A stretch of 42,971 nucleotides of DNA, from IMG/VR virus record IMGVR_UViG_2579778686_000011, one strand, 5' to 3'. Origin of the DNA: a virus. Lineage: Duplodnaviria > Heunggongvirae > Uroviricota > Caudoviricetes. Below the pieces are notes generated by a model that was given only the letters and a program-made list of their open reading frames with translations, ran no database searches and was not told where the DNA came from. Below, piece after piece: positions 1 to 30,697 of the stretch (the first letter of the stretch is position 1; every line of letters starts with the position of its first letter). The position numbers and the translations under genes were made by a program.

Positions 1-755
1 TTCAGTAAATACAGGGTTACTGATAGTGACACCAATTTCAAAACAACCTTCAGACGTATTAACGTTTGGTAATAACGTTTCCATTATCGCGTCCTCAACA
101 ATGAATTTTGTGATGCGGTGCCTGGTGCCTCCAGGTGACGTTAACCAGTTAACAATTAACGCCGGATACAGAGAATCCACCCATAACACTGTTTTTGGTT
201 TTAACTGTTCCGCGTGCGCTCAGCCGCATTCACCGCATCACAAAATTCACTTTAAAAAGGGCGGCAGAGCAGTCACGGAGTAAAACTGATACCGCCAAAC
301 GTCACCAGAAAATTGATAACAGAGGGCGTTGCAGCGGGGTTGTCACTTAAGCGTATGGTCAACCTGACAACTCGGTGTCCTCAACGGGGAAGGAATAACC
401 CCGCCATACTTACCGCCGCGCCATTTCGCGGGTTGCCACAACCGGAAGCGCACGGTCGAATTAAATTTAACGACACCGTACAGTGAGACGAACTTCGCCG
501 TGCGCTTTCGTGTTGTATGCCTGCTTTTAACCACGTCAGGCGAGGTGGTATCCTTCTTATCCCGAATAACCAAGAAGGAAATCTATATGACTAAAGAAGA
601 ATTTGTCTCTTATATTTTTGATAAAACGGTTGAAATGTATGCCGCTACTTACGGGTCCTGTAATCCTCTGAATAAACCAGAGGGGAAAGATGATTTCGAC
701 AAAATTTACCGCTTCTTGGAGGACCGCTATATCAAAAGGTTAGAGGACGCAGGGA

Positions 756-1133
756 TCAAATCCCCAGTGAAGTCACCATTGTCCTGAGAACTTGCAGGAC
801 GTCATGATCGTAACTTCCATCCAAACCGCGACGGCAAATTGCTTCTCGTATTACCGGAAGCAGTTCGCTGGAAATCTCGGTGCATATTTCACCTGATAAT
901 ACGCCTGGCTCAAGTGAGAATATTGGTGAACTTACGGTCTTGGTCTCGACAGTTTCAGAGTCAGTGCCAACATTATAAAGCTCAACGAAAGCGGTCTTGA
1001 TTTTCCGGGCCAGATCTTTTGCTGGCTCGCTTGCAATATCTTTCCCGATTTCTCGCAGCACAGAATGCAATGTATGAGCTGCTGTTTTCTGTACATCAGA
1101 CGGTAAATCTTTAAATTCCATCGTCAGCCTCAT
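756..1133 (-). CDS. Hypothetical early-left protein (125 aa frame; start uncertain)
   Basis: Open frame co-oriented with the repressor-side leftward operon; no recognisable motif. Confidence 0.3.
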   Translation of the reverse strand: MRLTMEFKDLPSDVQKTAAHTLHSVLREIGKDIASEPAKDLARKIKTAFVELYNVGTDSETVETKTVSSPIFSLEPGVLSGEICTEISSELLPVIREAICRRGLDGSYDHDVLQVLRTMVTSLGI

Positions 1134-1285
1134 CAGTCAGTGTTTCTGGCTAACCAGCAACGCGCGCCAGATTCGGTTTTAAACGTTTTGCTTTTGGTAT
1201 ATGTCATCGCGGTGAACGTACCGTCCTGGTTGGGGAACACGCCACATACCAGAGATTCGCTGTTGCCAAGATCGATAGTATCCAT
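1133..1285 (-). CDS. Small hypothetical protein (~50 aa, MDTIDLGNSESLVCGVFPNQDGTFTAMTYTKSK...)
   Basis: Internal ATG at 1285 preceded by a GAGG-containing purine-rich stretch; the longer 1133..1441 frame reaches into the operator-like repeat at 1401-1420. Confidence 0.3.
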   Translation of the reverse strand: MDTIDLGNSESLVCGVFPNQDGTFTAMTYTKSKTFKTESGARCWLARNTD

Positions 1286-1400
1286 GCTGACCTCATTTCC
1301 CCTTAACGCCGGGGTAGCGGAACTGTTTGCTGAGAACACCGTGCGGTGTCTTGATGGAAGTAATTTAGTTTTCTCATTATTTTTCGTCAAGGTTTTTTGA

Positions 1401-1420
1401 TGAGAAAACTCAAGTATTGG
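1401..1420. promoter_or_regulatory. Operator-like palindrome copy 1 (TGAGAAAACTCAAGTATTGG)
   Basis: Contains the inverted repeat TGAG-AAAA-CTCA; 19/20 identical to the second copy at 1936-1955. Confidence 0.5.
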
Positions 1421-1477
1421 CGCAAGATAAAGCCAATACATTGAAATGTAAGGCTTTAAAATTTTGTGAAGGGATGA

Positions 1478-1885
1478 TTATTGATGCTTGTTGCGTTTGC
1501 GAGCCTCTAATAGCTCGGTGAACAGGCGATTAAAATTCTCAACGCGGGCGCGGAGTTCGCTGAGTTGTGCTTGTTGCTCTGATTTAGGAAGTGCGCGATA
1601 CAAACGCAGCATCTCTAACTCATCTTCCGATAAGTCTAAGGCACTATCGAGTGAAACAGGGGGAGCTGGTGTTTTGTCCTCGTCGCCAAACAGTATCCAG
1701 GTTGGTGAACATTGCAATACCTCGGCGAGGCGATGCAAATTTTGCCCGCGCGGGGCTGTATGGTCACTTTCCCATAATGAAATTGATGAGCCAGATACGC
1801 CAGCAGCTTTGCTTAAACCGTTTTGACTTAAGCCTACCTGCTTACGTCTTTCTCTAATGCGTTGACCTAAAGTTTTCTCGTTCAT
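1478..1885 (-). CDS. XRE-family HTH repressor (Rac-type prophage repressor-like, no S24 peptidase domain apparent)
   Basis: Translation MNEKTLGQRIRERRKQVGLSQNGLSKAAGVSGSSISLWE is a classic XRE helix-turn-helix; divergent from a Cro-like gene; start taken at ATG 1885 within the 1478..1936 frame. Confidence 0.8.
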   Translation of the reverse strand: MNEKTLGQRIRERRKQVGLSQNGLSKAAGVSGSSISLWESDHTAPRGQNLHRLAEVLQCSPTWILFGDEDKTPAPPVSLDSALDLSEDELEMLRLYRALPKSEQQAQLSELRARVENFNRLFTELLEARKRNKHQ

Positions 1886-1906
1886 ATTTAGATATCTTAA
1901 TAACCC

Positions 1907-1955
1907 TTGACTTGAGATTCCTTGAGTGATTAGCATTGAGAAAACTCAATATTGG
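1907..1955 (+). promoter_or_regulatory. Candidate rightward early promoter (-35 TTGACT 1907-1912, -10 TAGCAT 1931-1936) overlapping operator-like palindrome copy 2 (1936-1955)
   Basis: Sigma70-like hexamers with 18 bp spacing, followed by TTGAGAAAACTCAA palindrome and GGAGG RBS before the ATG at 1963. Confidence 0.45.
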
Positions 1956-1962
1956 AGGTGCG

Positions 1963-2190
1963 ATGTTTAAATCAGACGTAATTAATTTTTACGGTACGAA
2001 AGCCAAAGTAGCGAAAGCTGCTGGCGTTGACCCATCTGCTGTTTCTCAATGGCAAGAGCTGGTTCCTGAAGGTCGCGCGATGCGTCTACAGGAGGCATCT
2101 GGCGGCGAGCTTCTGTATGATCCCAAGGTTTATGACGAATATCGTAAGACGAAGCGGGCGGGGCGGTTGAACAATGAAAATCACTCCTGA
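1963..2190 (+). CDS. Cro/YdaS-like small DNA-binding protein
   Basis: 75 aa, MFKSDVINFYGTKAKVAKAAGVDPSAVSQWQ... HTH-like; GGAGG RBS 5 nt upstream; divergent from repressor. Confidence 0.7.
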   Translation: MFKSDVINFYGTKAKVAKAAGVDPSAVSQWQELVPEGRAMRLQEASGGELLYDPKVYDEYRKTKRAGRLNNENHS

Positions 2191-2695
2191 ACAGGCTCGT
2201 GAGGCTCTGGATGCCTGGATATGTCGACCAGGAATGACACAGGAGCAGGCGACGATATTAATCACTGAAGCATTCTGGGCTTTGAAAGAGCGCCCGAACA
2301 TCGATGTTCAGCGTGTCACAGATGAAGGTGGCGCGGTTGATCAGCGAGCGCTTGGCGTTAATCGAGTGAAGATATTCGAACGCTGGAAGGCTATCGACAC
2401 TAGGGATAAGCGTGAAAAGTTCACGGCGCTAGTGCCTGCAATTATGGAGGCTATCCGGATTAATGATTTCAGGTTGTATCGTGAAATTAGTGACGGAAAA
2501 AGCATCACGTACATGATCGCCGGGTTAAACAAAGAATATGGCGATGTGGTGGAGTCCGGACTGCTTTTTGCTGATCCTGCCGTAGTGGATCGTGAAACTG
2601 ACGAACTTATAGAAAAAGCAATTGCTTTCAAACTTGCGTATCGACAGCAATACCAACAAAAAGCTGGATGGAATTATGAGCCTTCTTTTTGCTGA
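2174..2695 (+). CDS. YdaT-like protein (second gene of the repressor-controlled rightward operon)
   Basis: 173 aa frame overlapping the Cro-like stop; position and size match the ydaS-ydaT arrangement of Rac-type prophages; family assignment from memory, not searched. Confidence 0.55.
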   Translation: MKITPEQAREALDAWICRPGMTQEQATILITEAFWALKERPNIDVQRVTDEGGAVDQRALGVNRVKIFERWKAIDTRDKREKFTALVPAIMEAIRINDFRLYREISDGKSITYMIAGLNKEYGDVVESGLLFADPAVVDRETDELIEKAIAFKLAYRQQYQQKAGWNYEPSFC

Positions 2696-3641
2696 ACGCC
2701 CACTGGTTATAAACACACAGCTTGCGATGAAGATTGGCTTAAATGAAGCCATTGTGTTGCAGCAGTTGCATTACTGGTTGAGAGATACCAATTCCGGCAT
2801 GGAATGTGATGGTGTTCGCTGGATTTACAACACAACGGAACAATGGCTGGAACAGTTCCCATTCTGGTCAGAGTCAACGTTAAAGCGCGCGTTTGCAAGT
2901 CTGAAAACGCTGGGGCTTTTGCGTTGTGAAAAGCTCAATAAATCAAAGCGCGATATGACCAATTTCTACACGATCAACTACGGGAGCGAGCTTTTAGATG
3001 GTGGCAAATTGAGCGAATCCATCGGTTTAAAATGCGCCGCTCCATCAGGTCAAAATGACACGATGGAAGAGGTCAAAATGAAACGCTCCATTGGTTCAAA
3101 ACGACCCAATGTCATCGGGTCAAAATGGCCTGATGATCTTACAGAGAATACAACAGAGATTACTACAGAGAATAAAAACACTTTTCGTCCGGAAGCTTCG
3201 CAACCGGACCCGCAGACCGCTGAACAGGATTTTTTAACCCGGAACCCCGACGCGGTTGTGTTTAGTGCGAAAAAACGCCAGTGGGGTAGCAGGGAGGATT
3301 TGGCGTGTGCGCAGTGGATTTGGGGGCGGATCGTGAACCTTTACGAACAGGCTGCCAGCGACGATGGAGAGATCATGCGACCAAAAGAGCCTAACTGGAC
3401 AGCCTGGGCCAATGACGTGCGCACAATGCGGATGCTGGATGGCAGAAGCCACAGACAAATTTGCGAAATGTTTGGTCGGGTACAGCGAGATCAATTCTGG
3501 GTAAAAAACATCATGAGCCCGTCAAAACTCCGCGAAAAATGGGACGAACTGGTCATCCGCCTGGGACGTTCACCTGTACAGCGTTGTATGAATCATATTT
3601 CTGAACCGGATACAGAAATTCCGCCTGGTTTCAGAGGATAA
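2676..3641 (+). CDS. Putative phage replication initiation protein (replisome-organiser-like)
   Basis: 321 aa from ATG 2676 (frame opens at 2622); follows the immunity module where lambdoid phages place O-like genes; winged-helix-like N-terminus. Confidence 0.45.
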   Translation: MSLLFAERPLVINTQLAMKIGLNEAIVLQQLHYWLRDTNSGMECDGVRWIYNTTEQWLEQFPFWSESTLKRAFASLKTLGLLRCEKLNKSKRDMTNFYTINYGSELLDGGKLSESIGLKCAAPSGQNDTMEEVKMKRSIGSKRPNVIGSKWPDDLTENTTEITTENKNTFRPEASQPDPQTAEQDFLTRNPDAVVFSAKKRQWGSREDLACAQWIWGRIVNLYEQAASDDGEIMRPKEPNWTAWANDVRTMRMLDGRSHRQICEMFGRVQRDQFWVKNIMSPSKLREKWDELVIRLGRSPVQRCMNHISEPDTEIPPGFRG

Positions 3642-4083: not shown

Positions 4084-4234
4084 TGTTAGGTATTTTAGAC
4101 GTTACTAGATTAAAAAGCATTAGTTCAGGAGTGAATTGACATTCTCATTTTTCATGGCACAGGGTAGATCTGGCGTGGTTGTCCGCTTTGTGCCAGAAGC
4201 GGACGTTACAATACAATCACTATGCTAATGCGCA

Positions 4235-5305
4235 TTGATATGTGATATAACAATAATCAACCGTTCAAAAAGGAGCATTTATATGAGCAGGATGATAATT
4301 GATACAAATATTCTTTACTCACTAGTTGGTCTGTCGACAAACCAAAAAATAATTAACTCCCCTATAGATCAATTCAAATTATCCATTACGACACCATCAC
4401 TCATAGAAGTGATCTCTAAATATTGCAATGACTTAGGGGCTGTAAAAAAATGCATTAGCCCAATCATAAACGGAAATATTGAACTAATTAGCATTGGTCA
4501 TACTCCAATCTCAAATGAATTTCTTTATAGGTTGCATTTTTCAGACAAAATAGACGAAGTAAAAGATATTATTGATAATGTTAGAGCACTAAAAATATCT
4601 AGAGAGGCTGAGTTTTATAGGTTCATACTCATACTGGTTGTCTCTGGTTTGTTTGAGGTTATTAGAGAAGATGGATACAAGTTTGATAACGATGTACAAA
4701 ATCAAAGTCAACTTAGTCTTGTGCAGACTCTACTTGAATCTAATATGGAATTAATTTTAGACTTCTTTAAAGATGAGTTGCGGAATGGATATATTAATGG
4801 AAATGAGCAGCAATCAGCTTTGAAAGCTTTTGAAACCATGCTTATCGGACTCCTACATGCTTTTCATGTCAACTATCATATGATTAAAACTGACACAGTT
4901 AACATTTCCGGAAGCCAAGACAGACTCAAAAATCTGTATGATAGTATAAAAAATGATAATTTTGATAAAAAGTTTAAAAAATATATGGAGAATCCAATAT
5001 CCCTTGCCTGCAAAAAAAAACACGAATCAGTAGTTGATAACTACCTGAAAGAAATGGAGGAGGGGATTTCTGGCGCTCGTGGGCTTACTAAGAATTCGTT
5101 GAGCTTTCTAATGAGCAAGGTTGAGGATGCATATAAAAATGGTCGTAAATTACGAAAAAATGACATATTTGACTTTCTAATAGTTATTTCTCTAAATATG
5201 CCAGACACTTTGATTTTAACACTTGATAAAGGTTTTTTAAAAGACCTTAAAGATCTTCACCCTAACAGCTATAAAAAGTGTCTGGATTTCGGTTTTGTAA
5301 ATTAA
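4235..5305 (+). CDS. Split PIN-like domain protein in an AT-rich island (340 aa if started at ATG 4283)
   Basis: N-terminus MIIDTNILYSL matches the hhhDTNhh start of PIN/VapC nucleases; C-terminus NDIFDFLIVISL...DTLILTLDKGF resembles the distal PIN acidic strand; about 250 aa of Lys/Asn/Ile-rich sequence lies between. Confidence 0.55.
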   Translation: MICDITIINRSKRSIYMSRMIIDTNILYSLVGLSTNQKIINSPIDQFKLSITTPSLIEVISKYCNDLGAVKKCISPIINGNIELISIGHTPISNEFLYRLHFSDKIDEVKDIIDNVRALKISREAEFYRFILILVVSGLFEVIREDGYKFDNDVQNQSQLSLVQTLLESNMELILDFFKDELRNGYINGNEQQSALKAFETMLIGLLHAFHVNYHMIKTDTVNISGSQDRLKNLYDSIKNDNFDKKFKKYMENPISLACKKKHESVVDNYLKEMEEGISGARGLTKNSLSFLMSKVEDAYKNGRKLRKNDIFDFLIVISLNMPDTLILTLDKGFLKDLKDLHPNSYKKCLDFGFVN

Positions 5306-5602
5306 AAATATATTGATGTAAAATAAAACGCACCCACATTTAACTTAGCTAGACTATATCCTTCAATTATTCTATCTGCTTTTTGTTAAATGTGGGGTTG
5401 CAGATGTTACGAGTCAATTAAATTTGCAAGTCAGGTAGAATTGATAAGAATTGCAATACGAATCCGTGAACATTAATGCTAACGCTAAGTATACGAAAGA
5501 TATTGTAAATATACTTCTTTTTTTGTTTTTAAGTTCTTTTATTTGACAGTAGTTCCATCATTCAATTGCGTATTATCTTCCAATGCCAGTGACACTCCCT
5601 CA

Positions 5603-5695
5603 TTATGAGAGGATTGTGGTAATCAAAAGAAAAATTAATATCACGCCAAGAATATTCGAAACCAACCCTATGGTGTTAAGTCCTGGTGATGTCAT
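5603..5695 (-). CDS. Candidate small hydrophobic peptide (30 aa, MTSPGLNTIGLVSNILGVILIFLLITTILS)
   Basis: Hand-translated from the minus strand; single predicted transmembrane helix; weak RBS; in otherwise ORF-free AT-rich DNA. Confidence 0.2.
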   Translation of the reverse strand: MTSPGLNTIGLVSNILGVILIFLLITTILS

Positions 5696-6075
5696 TTAGT
5701 TTGCTCTAGGTTTATTATTCAGAAAGCAAAGAATATTCGTTAAATTATTATGTTAGCTTTAATTATTAAAAAACATGTTAATTATCATCAAATGAGCACT
5801 TATCATCATTTTAGTCAAAGAGGTAGTGAGTATTCATTCTGGATCATAACTGCCTTCCTGTTTACGCTAGTGTTTTTTAAAGTCGATGTCCGCTCATCGC
5901 TCAAAGCGGACTAGAAGGTTAGCTTGTGTCGGACTTTGCGTATTAAATGACTAGTGGTTGAGCCCCATTTCCACAGAAAAAATCAGAGAAACTATACCCA
6001 ATAGTTGTATTGAATCACTGACGAGACAGCCTCATATTCATCAGGACTGGTGTACGTCCAATACAGGAGGTTGTG

Positions 6076-6165: not shown

Positions 6166-6376
6166 TTTCACATTGGCGAGGTAACGGTAGTTAAGTAGAA
6201 TGGCTGCGGGTGCTTGAGGCTATCTGCCTCGGGCATGAACACCAACGGCAGATAGAGAAAAGCCCCAGTTAACATTACGCGTCCTGCAAGACGCTTAACA
6301 TTAATCTGAGGCCAATTTCATGCTAGACACATGTAGGTTAGCCTCTTACGTGCCGAAAGGCAAGGAGAAGCAGGCT

Positions 6377-6532
6377 ATGAAGCAGCAAAAGGCGATGTTA
6401 ATCGCCCTGATCGTCATCTGTTTAACCGTCATAGTGACGGCACTGGTAACGAGGAAAGACCTCTGCGAGGTACGAATCCGAACCGGGCAGACGGAGGTCG
6501 CTGTCTTCACAGCTTACGAACCTGAGGAGTAA
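6377..6532 (+). CDS. hok: Hok/Gef-family type I toxin
   Basis: MKQQKAMLIALIVICLTVIVTALVTRKDLCEVRIRTGQTEVAVFTAYEPEE is collinear with Hok, including the TRK-LCE-R core; AAGGAGA RBS; in-frame upstream ATG at 6320 gives a mok-like leader; hok-like 5' UTR and 3' fold-back elements present. Confidence 0.85.
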   Translation: MKQQKAMLIALIVICLTVIVTALVTRKDLCEVRIRTGQTEVAVFTAYEPEE

Positions 6533-6601
6533 GAGACCCGGCGAGGGAGAAATCCCTCGCCACCTCTGATGTGGCAGGCATCCTCAACGCACCCGCACTT
6601 A

Positions 6602-6627
6602 ACCCGCTTCGGCGGGTTTTTGTTTTT
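6602..6627 (+). terminator. Rho-independent terminator ending the hok transcript
   Basis: CCCGC-TTCG-GCGGG hairpin followed by TTTTTGTTTTT. Confidence 0.7.
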
Positions 6628-6748: not shown

Positions 6749-7000
6749 ATGATGAACATCGAAGAACTGCGTAAAATTTTTTGTGAAGATGGCCTCTATG
6801 CGGTGTGCGTTGAAAATGGAAATCTTGTTAGTCATTACCGCATTATGTGTTTGCGAAAGAATGGGGCTGCGTTAATTAATTTTGTGGATGGTCGAGTGAC
6901 AGACGGATTTATCTTGCGCGAAGGTGAGTTTGTCACTTCATTACAGGCACTGAAAGAGATCGGAATAAAAGCAGGCTTTTCAGCTTTTGCAGAAGAATAA
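6749..7000 (+). CDS. Hypothetical NinR-region protein (83 aa)
   Basis: Open frame with plausible start; no recognisable motif. Confidence 0.4.
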   Translation: MMNIEELRKIFCEDGLYAVCVENGNLVSHYRIMCLRKNGAALINFVDGRVTDGFILREGEFVTSLQALKEIGIKAGFSAFAEE

Positions 7001-28143: not shown

Positions 28144-30697
28144 TCTTGTTATTGACCTGAGTCTGGATGCTGTCCGTTTCGATGAGCAGATGAGCCGGGT
28201 AAGGCGTCATTTTTCAGGTCTGGATACCGACGCCAGAAAAACCGCCAGTGCTGTTGAACAGGGCCTGAGCCGCCAGGCGCTGGCTGCACAAAAAGCCGGG
28301 ATTTCCGTCGGGCAGTATAAAGCGGCCATGCGAACCCTGCCCGCACAGTTTACGGATATCGCCACGCAGCTTGCAGGTGGTCAGAATCCCTGGCTGATCC
28401 TGCTGCAACAGGGCGGTCAGGTGAAGGACTCCTTCGGCGGGATGATCCCCATGTTCAGGGGGCTTGCCGGTGCGATCACCCTGCCGATGGTCGGGGTCAC
28501 CTCGCTGGCGGTGGCGACAGGTGCGCTGGTGTACGCCTGGTACCAGGGAGATTCCACGCTTTCAGCGTTTAATAAAACCCTGGTTCTTTCCGGTAATCAG
28601 TCCGGACTGACTGCCGATCGTATGCTGACTCTCTCAAGAGCCGGGCAGGCAGCAGGGCTGACGTTTAACCAGGCGAGAGAGTCACTGGCAGCCCTGGTGA
28701 ATGCCGGTGTGCGTGGTGGTGAACAGTTTGATGCCATCAACCAGAGTGTCGCGCGTTTTGCGTCTGCATCCGGTGTGGAGGTGGATAAAGTCGCTGAAGC
28801 CTTCGGGAAGCTGACCACTGACCCGACGTCGGGACTGATGGCGATGGCGCGCCAGTTCCGTAACGTGACGGCAGAGCAGATTGCGTATGTTGCACAGCTG
28901 CAGCGTTCCGGAGACGAGGCCGGGGCATTGCAGGCGGCGAACGATATCGCCACGAAAGGCTTTGATGAGCAGACCCGTCGCCTGAAAGAAAACATGGGAA
29001 CACTGGAGACCTGGGCGGATAAAACAGGGAAGGCATTCAAATCGATGTGGGATGCCATTCTGGATATCGGTCGTCCGGAATCCTCAGCGGATATGCTCGC
29101 CAGTGCGCAGAAGGCATTTGATGAGGCGGATAAAAAATGGCAGTGGTACCAGAGCCGGAGCCAGCGCCGCGGTAAAACCTCCTCTTTCCGGGCCAACCTT
29201 CAGGGCGCATGGGATGACCGGGAAAATGCCCGTCTGGGTCTGGCAGCGGCAACGCTGCAGTCGGATATGGAAAAAGCCGGTGAACTGGCGGCAAGGGACA
29301 GGGCTGAGCGTGAGTCGTCACAGCTGAAGTATACCGGAGAGGCGCAGAAGGCGTATGAGCGCCTGCTGACGCCACTGGAGAAATATACCGCCCGGCAGGA
29401 AGAGCTGAATAAGGCCCTGAAAGACGGGAAAATCCTGCAGGCGGATTACAACACGCTGATGGCGTCGGCAAAAAAGGATTATGAGTCGACGCAGAAAAAG
29501 CCGTCCGGTGTGAAGGTGTCTGCCGGTGAGCGCCAGGAAGACCAGGCGCATGCAGCCCTGCTGGCGCTTGAAACCGAGCTCAGGACGCTGGAAAAACACA
29601 GCGGTGTGAATGAGAAAATCAGCCAGCAGCGCCGGGATTTATGGGAAGCGGAAAATCAGTATGTGGTCCTGAAAGAGGCCGCCACGAAACGGCAGTTATC
29701 TGAGCAGGAAAAATCCCTGCTGGCCCATGAGAAAGAGACGCTGGAGTACAAACGCCAGCTGGCTGAGCTGGGCGACAAGATTGAACACCAGAAACGGCTG
29801 AATGAGCTGGCACAGCAGGCGGCGCGGTTTGAACAGCAGCAGAGCGCGAAGCAGGCGGCAATCAGCGCAAAAGCCCGCGGACTCACCGACCGTCAGGCGC
29901 AGCGGGAGTCGGAAGAGCAGCGCCTTCGTGAGGTGTACGGTGATAATCCGGCTGCGCTGGCGAAGGCCACATCTGCACTGAAGAACACCTGGTCTGCGGA
30001 GGAGCAGCTTCGTGGAAGCTGGATGGCCGGGATGAAGTCCGGCTGGGGCGAGTGGGCGGAAAGTGCGACGGACAGTTTTTCGCAGGTTAAAAACGCGGCC
30101 ACGCAGACCTTTGACGGTATTGCACAGAATATGGCAGCGATGCTGACCGGCAGCGAACAGAACTGGCGTGGTTTCACCCGTTCTGTGCTGTCCATGCTGA
30201 CAGAGATTTTTCTGAAGCAGGCGATGGTGGGGATAGTCGGGAGTATCGGCAGCGCCATTGGCGGGGCTGTTGGTGGCGGCGCATCCGCGTCAGGCGGTAC
30301 AGCCATTCAGGCTGCGGCGGCGAACTTCCATTTCGCGACCGGGGGATTTACGGGGACGGGGGGTAAATATGAACCTGCGGGGATTGTTCATCGCGGGGAG
30401 TTTGTCTTCACGAAGGAGGCGACCAGCCGGATTGGTGTCGGCAATCTGTACCGCCTGATGCGGGGCTATGCGGAAGGTGGTTATGTCGGCGGTGCCGGAA
30501 GTCCGGCGCAGATGCGGCGGGCGGAAGGCATTAATTTTAATCAGAACAATCACGTGGTGATTCAGAACGACGGCCCCAACGGGCGGGCAGGGCCGCAGCT
30601 GATGAAAGCGGTGTATGAGATGGCCCGCAAGGGGGCACAGGATGAACTCCGGCTGCAGTTGCGTGATGGCGGTATGTTATCAGGGAGCGGTGGATGA
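28124..30697 (+). CDS. H: Tail tape measure protein H
   Basis: 857 aa collinear with lambda gpH (PVGDLVIDLSLDAVRFDEQM, GISVGQYKAAMRTLPAQFTD, C-terminal GGFTGTGGKYEPAGIVHRGEFVFTKEATSRIGVGNLYRLMRGY). Confidence 0.92.
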   Translation: MSQPVGDLVIDLSLDAVRFDEQMSRVRRHFSGLDTDARKTASAVEQGLSRQALAAQKAGISVGQYKAAMRTLPAQFTDIATQLAGGQNPWLILLQQGGQVKDSFGGMIPMFRGLAGAITLPMVGVTSLAVATGALVYAWYQGDSTLSAFNKTLVLSGNQSGLTADRMLTLSRAGQAAGLTFNQARESLAALVNAGVRGGEQFDAINQSVARFASASGVEVDKVAEAFGKLTTDPTSGLMAMARQFRNVTAEQIAYVAQLQRSGDEAGALQAANDIATKGFDEQTRRLKENMGTLETWADKTGKAFKSMWDAILDIGRPESSADMLASAQKAFDEADKKWQWYQSRSQRRGKTSSFRANLQGAWDDRENARLGLAAATLQSDMEKAGELAARDRAERESSQLKYTGEAQKAYERLLTPLEKYTARQEELNKALKDGKILQADYNTLMASAKKDYESTQKKPSGVKVSAGERQEDQAHAALLALETELRTLEKHSGVNEKISQQRRDLWEAENQYVVLKEAATKRQLSEQEKSLLAHEKETLEYKRQLAELGDKIEHQKRLNELAQQAARFEQQQSAKQAAISAKARGLTDRQAQRESEEQRLREVYGDNPAALAKATSALKNTWSAEEQLRGSWMAGMKSGWGEWAESATDSFSQVKNAATQTFDGIAQNMAAMLTGSEQNWRGFTRSVLSMLTEIFLKQAMVGIVGSIGSAIGGAVGGGASASGGTAIQAAAANFHFATGGFTGTGGKYEPAGIVHRGEFVFTKEATSRIGVGNLYRLMRGYAEGGYVGGAGSPAQMRRAEGINFNQNNHVVIQNDGPNGRAGPQLMKAVYEMARKGAQDELRLQLRDGGMLSGSGG

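What the first reader, a model, noticed from the sequence alone, without database searches (positions are those of the whole stretch)
1395..2700. Rac-type immunity switch with duplicated operator-like palindromes
The immunity region is not cI/cro-like: an XRE repressor lacking an obvious S24 autopeptidase domain is divergent from a Cro/YdaS-like and a YdaT-like gene. As I recall, the ydaS-ydaT pair in Rac is toxic when derepressed. Two near-identical operator-like sites (TGAGAAAACTCAA-G/T-TATTGG) occur, one overlapping the rightward promoter (1936-1955) and one 535 bp away past the repressor 3' end (1401-1420), a spacing that would allow repressor-mediated looping or control of the leftward genes.
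Basis: partly seen in the sequence, partly recalled or inferred. Interest (0 to 1): 0.45.

Follow-up and report, generated by a model that had tools for sequence, protein, structure and literature searches.

The report
DicA/DicC-type phage immunity switch

Summary
TGAGAAAACTCAA occurs exactly twice, at 1401-1413 and 1937-1949. One copy lies at the rightward promoter and one lies past the repressor's 3' end. After the 13-mer the copies differ by a 1-nt indel, not a G/T substitution, and the "TATTGG" tail is not conserved.

This is a non-cI immunity switch whose repressor lacks an S24 peptidase domain, next to a Cro-like and a YdaT/CII-like gene. It is not Rac-type. The repressor is a full-length DicA-family protein with no similarity to RacR, and the Cro is DicC/P22-Cro family.

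The sites form a classical operator set. OR1, OR2 and OR3 are spaced 24-25 bp apart across the divergent promoters. Two OL sites, 36 bp apart, flank the -35 of the leftward promoter.

Four other DicA-type phages have the same layout with different operator sequences. The operator cores are unchanged in a lineage whose flanking DNA differs by about 16%.

A Rem antirepressor homologue (6749-7000) is the likely induction route. The window matches the published phage mEp460_ev081, whose dicA/dicC/rem homology is already in the literature. Repressor binding is inferred, not shown. This is ordinary: a new specificity within a known kind.

The parts
1360..2061 (.). Immunity cassette. This is the block that differs from K-12 Qin while both flanks are homologous. 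It holds the OL operators, the repressor gene, the OR operators and the HTH-coding first 33 codons of the Cro-like gene.
   Evidence: blastn against K-12 Qin gives 90% identity over 1142-1359 and 97.7% over 2062-2453. In between, only 1655-1720 aligns, at 82%.
1478..1885 (-). Prophage repressor, 135 aa, DicA family. It has a P22-C2-like N-terminal HTH domain and a short helical C-terminal part, and no S24 peptidase domain.
   Evidence: NCBIfam NF007257 DicA, 239 bits against a cut-off of 101, matched end to end. It is 57% identical to K-12 DicA. PDB P22 C2 N-terminal domain 1adr matches at E = 8e-16 over residues 1-72. Pfam finds HTH families only. The start at 1885 is the one used.
1935..1950 (+). 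OR1, ATTGAGAAAACTCAAT, the best operator. It overlaps the -10/+1 of the rightward promoter and sits where the experimentally supported Qin DicA site Oc sits.
   Evidence: Its centre is 57.5 bp from the repressor ATG; Qin Oc is at 59.5 bp (Oc from PMC3441716). The core 1935-1949 is invariant in 78 of 80 relatives (position 1935 differs in two close relatives; 1936-1949 is invariant in all 80), while 1933-1934 and 1950-1952 vary.
1911..1926 (+). OR2, CTTGAGATTCCTTGAG, a weak site matching OR1 at 10 of 16 positions. It has one good half-site and overlaps the -35 and spacer of the rightward promoter.
   Evidence: Read from the sequence. PPompW and the Klebsiella phage have an equivalent site at -31.5 to -33.5 from the repressor ATG. 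The only variation among the 80 relatives is G>A at its last base, 1926, in three loci.
1886..1901 (.). OR3, ATTTAGATATCTTAAT, an imperfect palindrome matching OR1 at 12 of 16 positions. It abuts the repressor start codon.
   Evidence: (repeat I5). Equivalent sites lie at -8.5 to -9.5 from the repressor ATG in Qin, PPompW and BUCT709.
1907..1936 (+). Rightward promoter-like site TTGACT-18-TAGCAT. This is the PR / dicCp equivalent and would drive cro, the ydaT-like gene and the replication genes.
   Evidence: It is the only + strand hit of the promoter scan in 1250-2000. The -35 TTGACT is shared by all five family members.
1399..1414 (+). OL-distal, GATGAGAAAACTCAAG, just upstream of the -35 of the leftward promoter.
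   Evidence: The core 1400-1413 is nearly invariant in 80 relatives, while 1392-1399 and 1414-1421 vary.
1363..1378 (-). OL-proximal, AATGAGAAAACTAAAT, matching OR1 at 14 of 16 positions. It overlaps the spacer and -10 of the leftward promoter.
   Evidence: (repeats I1, I2). It lies 36 bp centre to centre from OL-distal; the same pair is 34-36 bp apart in Qin, PPompW, the Klebsiella phage and BUCT709.
1362..1390 (-). Leftward promoter-like site TTGACG-17-TAAATT. This is the PL / dicBp equivalent and would drive the ydfA-like gene, DicF, dicB and the exonuclease gene.
   Evidence: It is the only - strand hit of the promoter scan. It aligns with the K-12 dicBp region.
1428..1458 (-). Terminator-like hairpin followed by a U-rich tail, downstream of the repressor stop codon. 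It would keep repressor transcripts out of the leftward operon. This role is inferred.
   Evidence: It is part of the minimum-energy fold in both the window and the 90%-identity lineage, with z-scores of -3.1 and -3.9. The simple terminator scan did not call it.
1963..2190 (+). Cro-like regulator, 75 aa, DicC / P22-Cro family.
   Evidence: NCBIfam NF007282 DicC, 165 bits against a cut-off of 130. Pfam P22_Cro, 59 bits. It is 70% identical to K-12 DicC. PDB P22 Cro 1rzs matches at E = 2e-12.
2174..2695 (+). YdaT-family, CII-like regulator, 173 aa. Its start overlaps the end of cro.
   Evidence: Pfam YdaT_toxin, 26.1 bits against a cut-off of 21. PHROG 163 'CII-like transcriptional activator', E = 2.3e-40. 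Matches to the YdaT structures 3c4r and 8bt1 are weak, E = 0.05-0.07.
1133..1285 (-). First gene of the leftward operon: DUF1391, YdfA-like, 50 aa.
   Evidence: Pfam DUF1391, 94 bits. It is annotated as ydfA / DUF1391 in RefSeq genomes.
259..310 (-). DicF small RNA in the leftward operon. The 5' part of dicB lies at 1-84 on the - strand.
   Evidence: Rfam RF00039, 76.7 bits against a gathering score of 48. The dicB position follows from the annotation.
6749..7000 (+). Rem homologue, 83 aa. It is the putative antirepressor of the DicA-type repressor.
   Evidence: tblastn gives 96% identity to K-12 Rem over all 83 residues. Rem relieves DicA repression of dicBp in K-12 (PMC10448788).

Best explanation
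Window 1360-2700 is the immunity (lysis/lysogeny) region of an mEp460-like lambdoid prophage. It belongs to the DicA/DicC family known from the cryptic prophage Qin.

Proposed mechanism:
- A 135-aa repressor has a P22-C2-like HTH domain, a short helical C-terminal part and no autocleavage domain. It is proposed to bind 16-bp quasi-palindromic operators with the consensus A(A/T)TGAG-AAAA-CT(C/A)AAT.
- On the right, OR1 covers the -10/+1 and OR2 covers the -35 of the rightward promoter. Binding there shuts off cro, the YdaT/CII-like gene and the replication genes.
- OR3 abuts the repressor start codon and would serve negative autoregulation or Cro action.
- On the left, two operators 36 bp apart bracket the -35 and cover the -10 of the leftward promoter. 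Binding there shuts off the ydfA-DicF-dicB-exonuclease operon.
- By analogy with Qin DicA at Oc, repressor bound at OR1 probably also stimulates the repressor's own weak promoter.
- The Cro-like protein has its HTH-coding part inside the same exchangeable cassette. It most likely uses the same operators to turn the repressor gene off.
- The repressor cannot be cleaved through RecA. Induction is expected to go through the Rem antirepressor homologue at 6749-7000 and/or stochastic flipping of the DicA/DicC bistable switch.

Shown here: the sequence features, the family memberships, the positional conservation and the covariation.
Inferred: binding, repression, autoactivation and the induction route.
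For: 1. Identity. Window 1100-2750 is 100% identical to Escherichia phage mEp460_ev081 and to an E. coli prophage. 781 of 5426 complete E. coli genomes carry at least 80% of it.
2. Family. The repressor scores 239 bits on NCBIfam DicA and the Cro scores 165 bits on NCBIfam DicC. They are 57% and 70% identical to K-12 DicA and DicC. The repressor's N-terminal domain matches the P22 C2 structure and the Cro matches the P22 Cro structure.
3. Sites. Three copies with at most 3 mismatches to the 16-mer were found against 0.13 expected, and all lie at the only two promoter-like sites of the region. A shared 13-mer was reached in 1 of 3000 shuffles.
4. Architecture. Qin, PPompW, Klebsiella phage ST405-OXA48phi1.2 and BUCT709 share the layout, each with its own operator sequence. 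O1 lies at -57.5 to -59.5, O2 at about -32 and O3 at about -9 from the repressor ATG. Two OL sites 34-36 bp apart flank the -35.
5. Covariation. The four types with recognition helix (S/A)HV(T/S)(I/V)SQWE use TTAG...CTAA half-sites. This type has SGSSISLWE and uses TGAG...CTCA.
6. Experimental anchor. The position of O1 equals that of Qin Oc, where DicA binding was shown in vivo (PMC3441716).
7. Footprint. In a lineage with the same HTH, the operator cores show 0 differences in 44 positions. The other non-coding positions show 28 differences in 171. Fisher p = 0.001.
8. Cassette. The boundaries 1360 and 2061 enclose exactly the operators, the repressor and the Cro HTH.
9. Antirepressor. A Rem homologue with 96% identity is present. 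Rem derepresses dicBp in K-12, and the same paper notes dicAC, dicB, dicF and rem homologues in mEp460_ev081 (PMC10448788).
Against: - No binding or expression data exist for this repressor or these sites.
- In Qin, only Oc was bound in vivo. The sequence-predicted sites Om and Oa were not bound (PMC3441716), so OR2 and OR3 here may be non-functional or may be Cro sites.
- OR2 is a weak match, 10 of 16.
- No promoter for the repressor gene was found by consensus scanning.
- No LexA box or other signal was found near rem, so the trigger for induction is unknown.
- The close relatives used for the footprint are not independent samples.
Confidence: 0.85

Rival explanations
1. The region is a Rac-type module: a RacR-like repressor holds down a toxic YdaS/YdaT pair, so it is in effect a repressor-toxin system.
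For: - The gene order matches Rac: an HTH repressor divergent from a small HTH gene and a YdaT-family gene.
- The YdaT_toxin Pfam score passes its cut-off.
- There are weak local similarities to K-12 YdaS (33% over 46 aa) and to YdaT (41% over 29 aa).
- RacR depletion is lethal through ydaS/ydaT expression (PMC5700373, PMC5700377).
Against: - The repressor shows no similarity to RacR (E = 5) and is a full-length DicA.
- The Cro falls below the YdaS_toxin gathering score and is DicC / P22_Cro family.
- YdaS and YdaT are now interpreted as Cro and CII equivalents rather than toxins (PMC5917428, PMC9986795, PMC8630535).
- The element is a complete, functional temperate phage type (PMC10448788), so the switch governs phage development rather than a toxin.
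Confidence: 0.05
2. In addition to local repression, repressor bound at OL (1363-1414) and OR (1886-1950) forms a DNA loop of about 0.5 kb, as lambda CI does. The loop would sharpen repression and autoregulation.
For: - Multiple operators lie on both sides of the repressor gene, 536 bp apart.
- A confident long C-terminal helix (residues 101-134) in a poor single-sequence model could mediate oligomerisation.
Against: - No evidence bears on the oligomeric state. The model is of low confidence, with mean pLDDT 62.9.
- The OL-OR distance is not conserved in the family: 496, 511, 534, 536 and 549 bp.
- The arrangement is fully explained by two separate promoters, each needing its own operators.
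- DicA lacks the lambda-CI C-terminal domain that mediates octamerisation.
Confidence: 0.12
3. The repeated 13-mer is a chance or historical duplicate with no binding function, for example a remnant of recombination between promoter regions.
For: - With 3 mismatches allowed, the 13-mer is not enriched over the whole window: 17 matches against 12.5 expected.
- The extra copy at 1867-1882 looks like chance or a coding effect.
Against: - Exact and near-exact copies occur only at the two promoters.
- The shuffle test gives about p = 3e-4.
- The cores are conserved while their flanks vary.
- The sites are positionally equivalent to sites in four other immunity types and to the experimentally supported Qin Oc.
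Confidence: 0.03

Closest known systems
Qin cryptic prophage immunity locus of E. coli K-12 (dicA-dicC, Oc/Om/Oa operators, dicBp, Rem antirepressor)
   Same: - The protein families match: DicA, DicC, YdfA/DUF1391, DicF, DicB and Rem.
- The gene order is the same.
- The repressor is 135 aa and lacks an S24 domain in both.
- The operators sit at the same distances from the genes and promoters.
- The flanks are 90-98% identical in DNA.
   Different: - The central cassette (1360-2061) is replaced. The recognition helix is SGSSISLWE against SHVSVSQWE. The operator is TTGAG-AAAA-CTCAA against TTGTTAGT-CATA-ACTAACAA. A different immunity specificity is therefore predicted.
- The YdaT/CII-like gene is intact here, at 173 aa. 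K-12 keeps only the remnant ydfX.
- This element is part of a complete, apparently functional phage.
Phage P22 immC region (C2 repressor, Cro, tripartite OR and OL)
   Same: - The repressor's N-terminal domain is homologous (47% identity over 72 aa; PDB 1adr, E = 8e-16).
- The Cro is homologous (PDB 1rzs, E = 2e-12).
- Both have quasi-palindromic operators with an A/T-rich centre, arranged as three sites about 24 bp apart between divergent promoters.
   Different: - P22 C2 is 216 aa with a LexA-like cleavage and oligomerisation domain and is inactivated through RecA. This repressor stops at 135 aa with an unrelated short helical tail.
- The key recognition-helix residues differ. P22 has VSNVAISQWE.
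Rac prophage racR-ydaS-ydaT (E. coli K-12)
   Same: - The layout is analogous: a repressor without an S24 domain, divergent from Cro-like and CII-like (YdaT family) genes.
- A DUF1391 gene (ydaF) lies on the leftward side.
   Different: - RacR is unrelated in sequence.
- YdaS belongs to a different Cro family; the Pfam YdaS_toxin score here is below threshold.
- The YdaT similarity is only distant.
CP-933P paaR2 / ydaS / ydaT switch of E. coli O157:H7
   Same: Both are bistable CI/Cro/CII-like circuits that include a YdaT-family CII analogue (PMC8630535, PMC9986795).
   Different: - The YdaT here matches the solved CP-933P YdaT only weakly (8bt1, E = 0.07).
- No TTGATT-N6-AATCAA-like inverted repeat or PRE-like promoter was found at the cro/ydaT junction.
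- The repressor family is different.
Gifsy-type antirepressor-controlled prophage repressors (Salmonella)
   Same: Both have a short, non-cleavable repressor that is expected to be inactivated by a small antirepressor protein (PMC10448788).
   Different: The Gifsy antirepressors are under LexA control. No LexA box was found near rem here.

Membership tests
DicA/DicC (Qin-type) immunity region | The repressor belongs to the DicA protein family, is about 135 aa long, and has an HTH domain but no S24 peptidase domain. | tested here: met
   NCBIfam NF007257 scores 239.4 bits against a cut-off of 101, matched over 1-135 of 135. Identity to K-12 DicA is 57%. Pfam finds HTH families only.
DicA/DicC (Qin-type) immunity region | A divergently transcribed Cro-like gene of the DicC family is present. 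| tested here: met
   NCBIfam NF007282 scores 165.3 bits against a cut-off of 130. Identity to K-12 DicC is 70%.
DicA/DicC (Qin-type) immunity region | A leftward operon lies downstream of the repressor gene and carries ydfA (DUF1391), DicF RNA and dicB. | tested here: met
   DUF1391 scores 94 bits. DicF matches Rfam at 76.7 bits, at 259-310 on the - strand. dicB is annotated in the identical records.
DicA/DicC (Qin-type) immunity region | Operator palindromes lie at the dicCp-equivalent and dicBp-equivalent promoters. | tested here: met
   Sites lie at -57.5, about -33 and -8.5 from the repressor ATG, and two sites flank the -35 of the leftward promoter. The positions match those in Qin.
DicA/DicC (Qin-type) immunity region | The repressor binds the operators and represses both promoters. 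| not testable with these tools
   This needs EMSA, footprinting or reporter assays. Support here is indirect only: conservation and covariation.
DicA/DicC (Qin-type) immunity region | A Rem antirepressor is encoded on the same element. | tested here: met
   tblastn finds 96% identity to K-12 Rem at 6749-6997. Its function here was not tested.
Rac-type (RacR-YdaS-YdaT) | The repressor is homologous to RacR. | tested here: not met
   BLASTP against K-12 RacR gives a best E-value of 5.
Rac-type (RacR-YdaS-YdaT) | The Cro-like protein belongs to the YdaS family (Pfam PF15943). | tested here: not met
   The score is 22.7 bits against a gathering score of 30. P22_Cro scores 59.3 bits.
Rac-type (RacR-YdaS-YdaT) | A YdaT-family protein (Pfam PF06254) follows the Cro-like gene. 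| tested here: met
   The score is 26.1 bits against a gathering score of 21. PHROG 163, CII-like, matches at E = 2.3e-40. The relation to K-12 YdaT is only distant.
Lambda/P22 CI-type SOS-cleavable repressor | A C-terminal LexA-like S24 autopeptidase domain with an Ala-Gly cleavage site is present. | tested here: not met
   Pfam gives no Peptidase_S24 hit. The protein ends at 135 aa. Homology to P22 C2 stops at residue 72.
Type II toxin-antitoxin module (ydaS/ydaT as toxins) | A dedicated toxin is neutralised by a cognate antitoxin. | not tested
   Nothing in the sequence supports this reading, and the literature argues against it (PMC5917428, PMC9986795).

The most novel reading that the evidence does not exclude
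The operators of this immunity type are asymmetric. Every strong copy has the same AAAA centre, and the copies sit in inverted orientation as pairs. OL-proximal (-) and OL-distal (+) are 36 bp apart. A further weak copy in codons 2-6 of the repressor gene (1867-1882, -) faces OR1 (+) 68 bp away. If these orientations matter, the short DicA-type repressor might assemble a higher-order complex through its C-terminal helix. Such a complex would wrap or loop OL and OR and give cooperative, CI-like bistability without a CI-like C-terminal domain.
Probability: 0.07. Interest if true: 0.4.

Novelty: new member of a known kind. Interest (0 to 1): 0.15.

Why it matters
- It corrects a family assignment: this is Qin/DicA-type, not Rac-type.
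- It gives a concrete, testable operator map for an immunity specificity carried by about one in seven complete E. coli genomes and by a functional gut phage.
- The map has five sites and the consensus A(A/T)TGAG-AAAA-CT(C/A)AAT.
- This locus controls DicF and DicB, which affect cell division and phage susceptibility. Knowing the operators and the distinct recognition helix would therefore help in predicting heteroimmunity among co-resident Qin-like prophages and in designing reporters.
- It does not change the understanding of how such switches work.

Tried and rejected
1. The 20-nt motif including 'TATTGG'. Rejected as an operator extension. The two copies differ by an indel, and positions 1414-1421 vary among close relatives.
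2. A fourth copy at 1867-1882 (-), inside repressor codons 2-6 (11 of 16). No equivalent exists in the four other immunity types, and its conservation can be explained by coding. It is treated as probably chance.
3. A hairpin at 1414-1439 as the repressor terminator. Rejected, because one arm is destroyed in the 90%-identity lineage. The conserved hairpin is at 1428-1458.
4. A LexA box near rem or anywhere relevant. The only CTGT-N8-ACAG in the window is at 30188, and none lies upstream of rem.
5. A YdaT-type inverted repeat or PRE-like promoter at the cro/ydaT junction. None was found.
6. The close-relative search in viral contigs. It returned only loci with 96-100% identical repressors. These were useful for a footprint but not for covariation, so diverse relatives were taken from the phage collection instead.
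7. Structure prediction of the repressor. The single-sequence model was poor (pLDDT 62.9), so no fold search was run and nothing is concluded about oligomerisation.
8. The 152-aa ORF starting at 1936 and the 102-aa ORF at 1133-1441. Both are mechanical extensions that overlap operators. The annotated genes are 1478-1885 and 1133-1285.

Full report
**What is in the sequence.** The 13-mer TGAGAAAACTCAA occurs exactly twice in the 42,971-bp window, at 1401-1413 and 1937-1949, both on the + strand and 536 bp apart. It is a quasi-palindrome, TGAG-AAAA-CTCA. At the right-hand site it extends to ATTGAG-AAAA-CTCAAT (1935-1950). That is not quite right, because the right copy lacks one base relative to the left copy. 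The TATTGG tail varies among close relatives.

Weaker relatives lie at 1886-1901 (ATTTAGATATCTTAAT, 12 of 16) and 1911-1926 (CTTGAGATTCCTTGAG, 10 of 16).

The repeats are not chance. At most 3 mismatches to the 16-mer gives 3 sites against 0.13 expected per shuffle. A shared word of 13 nt or more between the two intergenic regions arose in 1 of 3000 shuffles.

A consensus scan of 1250-2000 finds exactly two promoter-like sites. They are TTGACT-18-TAGCAT on the + strand (1907-1936) and TTGACG-17-TAAATT on the - strand (1390-1362). The copies sit on these promoters. OR1 covers the -10/+1 of the rightward promoter. OL-proximal covers the spacer and -10 of the leftward promoter. OL-distal lies just upstream of the leftward -35.

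**The genes.**
- The repressor is 1478-1885 (-), 135 aa. The 152-aa frame from 1936 is a mechanical extension. It matches NCBIfam 'transcriptional repressor DicA' end to end, at 239 bits against a cut-off of 101. It is 57% identical to K-12 DicA. Its first 72 residues are homologous to the solved P22 C2 DNA-binding domain (E = 8e-16). There is no S24 domain.
- The rightward gene 1963-2190 is DicC family by NCBIfam (165 bits against 130). It is P22_Cro family by Pfam (59 bits) and 70% identical to DicC. It falls below the YdaS_toxin threshold.
- The next gene, 2174-2695, passes Pfam YdaT_toxin at 26.1 bits against 21. It matches PHROG 163, 'CII-like transcriptional activator', at E = 2.3e-40.
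- After it comes an O-like replication initiator at 2676-3641.
- Leftward of the repressor lie a DUF1391/YdfA-like gene (1133-1285), DicF RNA (259-310) and the start of dicB.
- Against K-12 Rac, the repressor shows no similarity to RacR (E = 5). The other two proteins show only short weak matches to YdaS and YdaT.

The locus is therefore Qin/DicA-type, not Rac-type, although the two are functional analogues.

**Where it comes from.** Window 1100-2750 is 100% identical to Escherichia phage mEp460_ev081 (LR597641.1) and to a prophage of E. coli FDAARGOS_497. 781 of 5426 complete E. coli genomes carry at least 80% of it. Compared with K-12 Qin, the flanks are homologous: 1142-1359 at 90% and 2062-2453 at 97.7%. 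The segment 1360-2061 is replaced. That cassette begins at the first OL operator and ends just after the HTH-coding part of cro. This is the classical structure of an exchangeable immunity region.

**Evidence that the palindromes are operators.**

(a) Position. In K-12 Qin, in vivo assays support DicA binding to Oc (TTGTTAGTCATAACTAACAA). Single-base changes in Oc abolish binding. DicA at Oc represses dicC and activates dicA (PMC3441716). Oc is centred 59.5 bp from the dicA ATG, and OR1 here is centred 57.5 bp from the repressor ATG.

(b) Architecture. Five DicA-type immunity regions share the layout:
- this one;
- Qin;
- PPompW;
- Klebsiella phage ST405-OXA48phi1.2;
- BUCT709.

In each, O1 lies at -57.5 to -59.5, O2 near -32 and O3 near -9. 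Two OL sites 34-36 bp apart bracket the -35 of the leftward promoter. Each type has its own operator sequence.

(c) Covariation. The four types with recognition helix (S/A)HV(T/S)(I/V)SQWE use TTAG...CTAA half-sites. This type has SGSSISLWE and uses TGAG...CTCA.

(d) Footprint. Among 80 IMG/VR loci, seven belong to a lineage about 90% identical in DNA with the same HTH. In that lineage the three strong cores (44 positions) show no difference. The remaining non-coding positions show 28 differences in 171 (Fisher p = 0.001).

**How it most likely works.** In the lysogen the repressor occupies OR1, and perhaps OR2, and blocks the rightward promoter. It also occupies the two OL sites and blocks the leftward promoter. 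That keeps DicF, DicB and the recombination genes silent. The repressor gene has no recognisable promoter. This is also true of Qin, where DicA at Oc acts as its own activator, so the same mechanism is inferred here.

A conserved hairpin with a U-rich tail at 1428-1458 (-) probably terminates repressor transcripts before the leftward operon. The Cro-like protein's DNA-reading part travels with the operators in the cassette. It presumably binds the same sites and shuts off the repressor gene. This would give the bistability reported for DicA/DicC (PMC10448788). The YdaT-like protein is expected to act as the CII analogue (PMC9986795, PMC8630535). I could not find its binding site or a PRE-like promoter.

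The repressor lacks a cleavage domain, so induction cannot follow the RecA/autocleavage route. The window encodes a Rem homologue 96% identical to K-12 Rem at 6749-7000. Rem relieves DicA repression 165-fold in K-12 (PMC10448788). No LexA box precedes it, so the trigger remains unknown. All binding and regulatory steps are inferences from sequence and from the Qin and P22 precedents.

**The looping idea.** Operators on both sides of the repressor gene are what any lambdoid region needs for its two early promoters. They do not by themselves argue for looping. The OL-OR distance is not conserved across the family, ranging from 496 to 549 bp. The only structural hint is a confident C-terminal helix in an otherwise poor single-sequence model. 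I leave looping as a low-probability addition, not a rival.

**Novelty.** The DicA/DicC locus and its lambdoid-like operators have been known since the 1980s, as cited in PMC10448788 and PMC3441716. The 2023 paper explicitly notes that mEp460_ev081 carries dicB, dicF, dicAC and rem homologues. I found no description of the operator sequence and map for this immunity specificity in the papers I searched. That map, together with the recognition-helix/operator correspondence across the family, is what appears to be new. It is a new member of a known kind and of low general interest.

Noticed in passing
window 4100-6000: This is an AT-rich island (31-35% GC, against about 45-53% around it). It holds a 340-aa ORF at 4283-5305 (+) with no Pfam, PHROG or PADLOC match. 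The otherwise identical phage record LR597641 has a different gene in this slot, on the opposite strand. It looks like a variable cargo ('moron') position between the DUF977 gene and hok/sok.
   Followed up: partly
window 6208-6532: A hok/sok-type toxin-antitoxin lies here. The sok RNA is at 6208-6382 (Rfam, 115 bits). A Hok-like ORF is at 6320-6532. A strong terminator-like hairpin follows at about 6600-6625, just upstream of rem.
   Followed up: partly
window 259-310 (-): The DicF small RNA (Rfam, 76.7 bits) lies in the leftward operon. The 5' part of dicB is at window 1-84 (-). The window therefore starts inside the dicBF-like operon that the left operators would control.
   Followed up: yes
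window 2062-2453; L003 2358-2749: K-12 ydfX appears to be the N-terminal remnant of the YdaT/CII-like gene. The window's cro 3' end plus the first about 280 nt of the ydaT-like gene are 97.7% identical to K-12's dicC 3' end plus ydfX.
   Followed up: partly
window 1428-1458 (-): A hairpin with a U-rich tail lies downstream of the repressor stop codon. It is kept in the 90%-identity lineage and is likely an intrinsic terminator that insulates the leftward operon. The simple terminator scan did not detect it.
   Followed up: partly
window 1867-1882 (-): An extra operator-like copy, AACGAGAAAACTTTAG (11 of 16), lies in codons 2-6 of the repressor gene. It is in inverted orientation to OR1, 68 bp away. 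It is absent from the four other immunity types, so it is probably chance or a coding effect.
   Followed up: yes
L087 (Cronobacter phage phiES15), 1148-1500 and 1906-2210: The putative operators of this more distant DicA-type repressor look like CTAAC-TTTT-GTTAG. The half-sites are in the opposite order to those of the other family members.
   Followed up: no
L086 (OM816835.1, 'Stenotrophomonas phage vB_SmeS_BUCT709'): This phage carries a DicA/Cro immunity region of the enterobacterial type, with the same operator architecture. The stated host looks unusual for this module.
   Followed up: no
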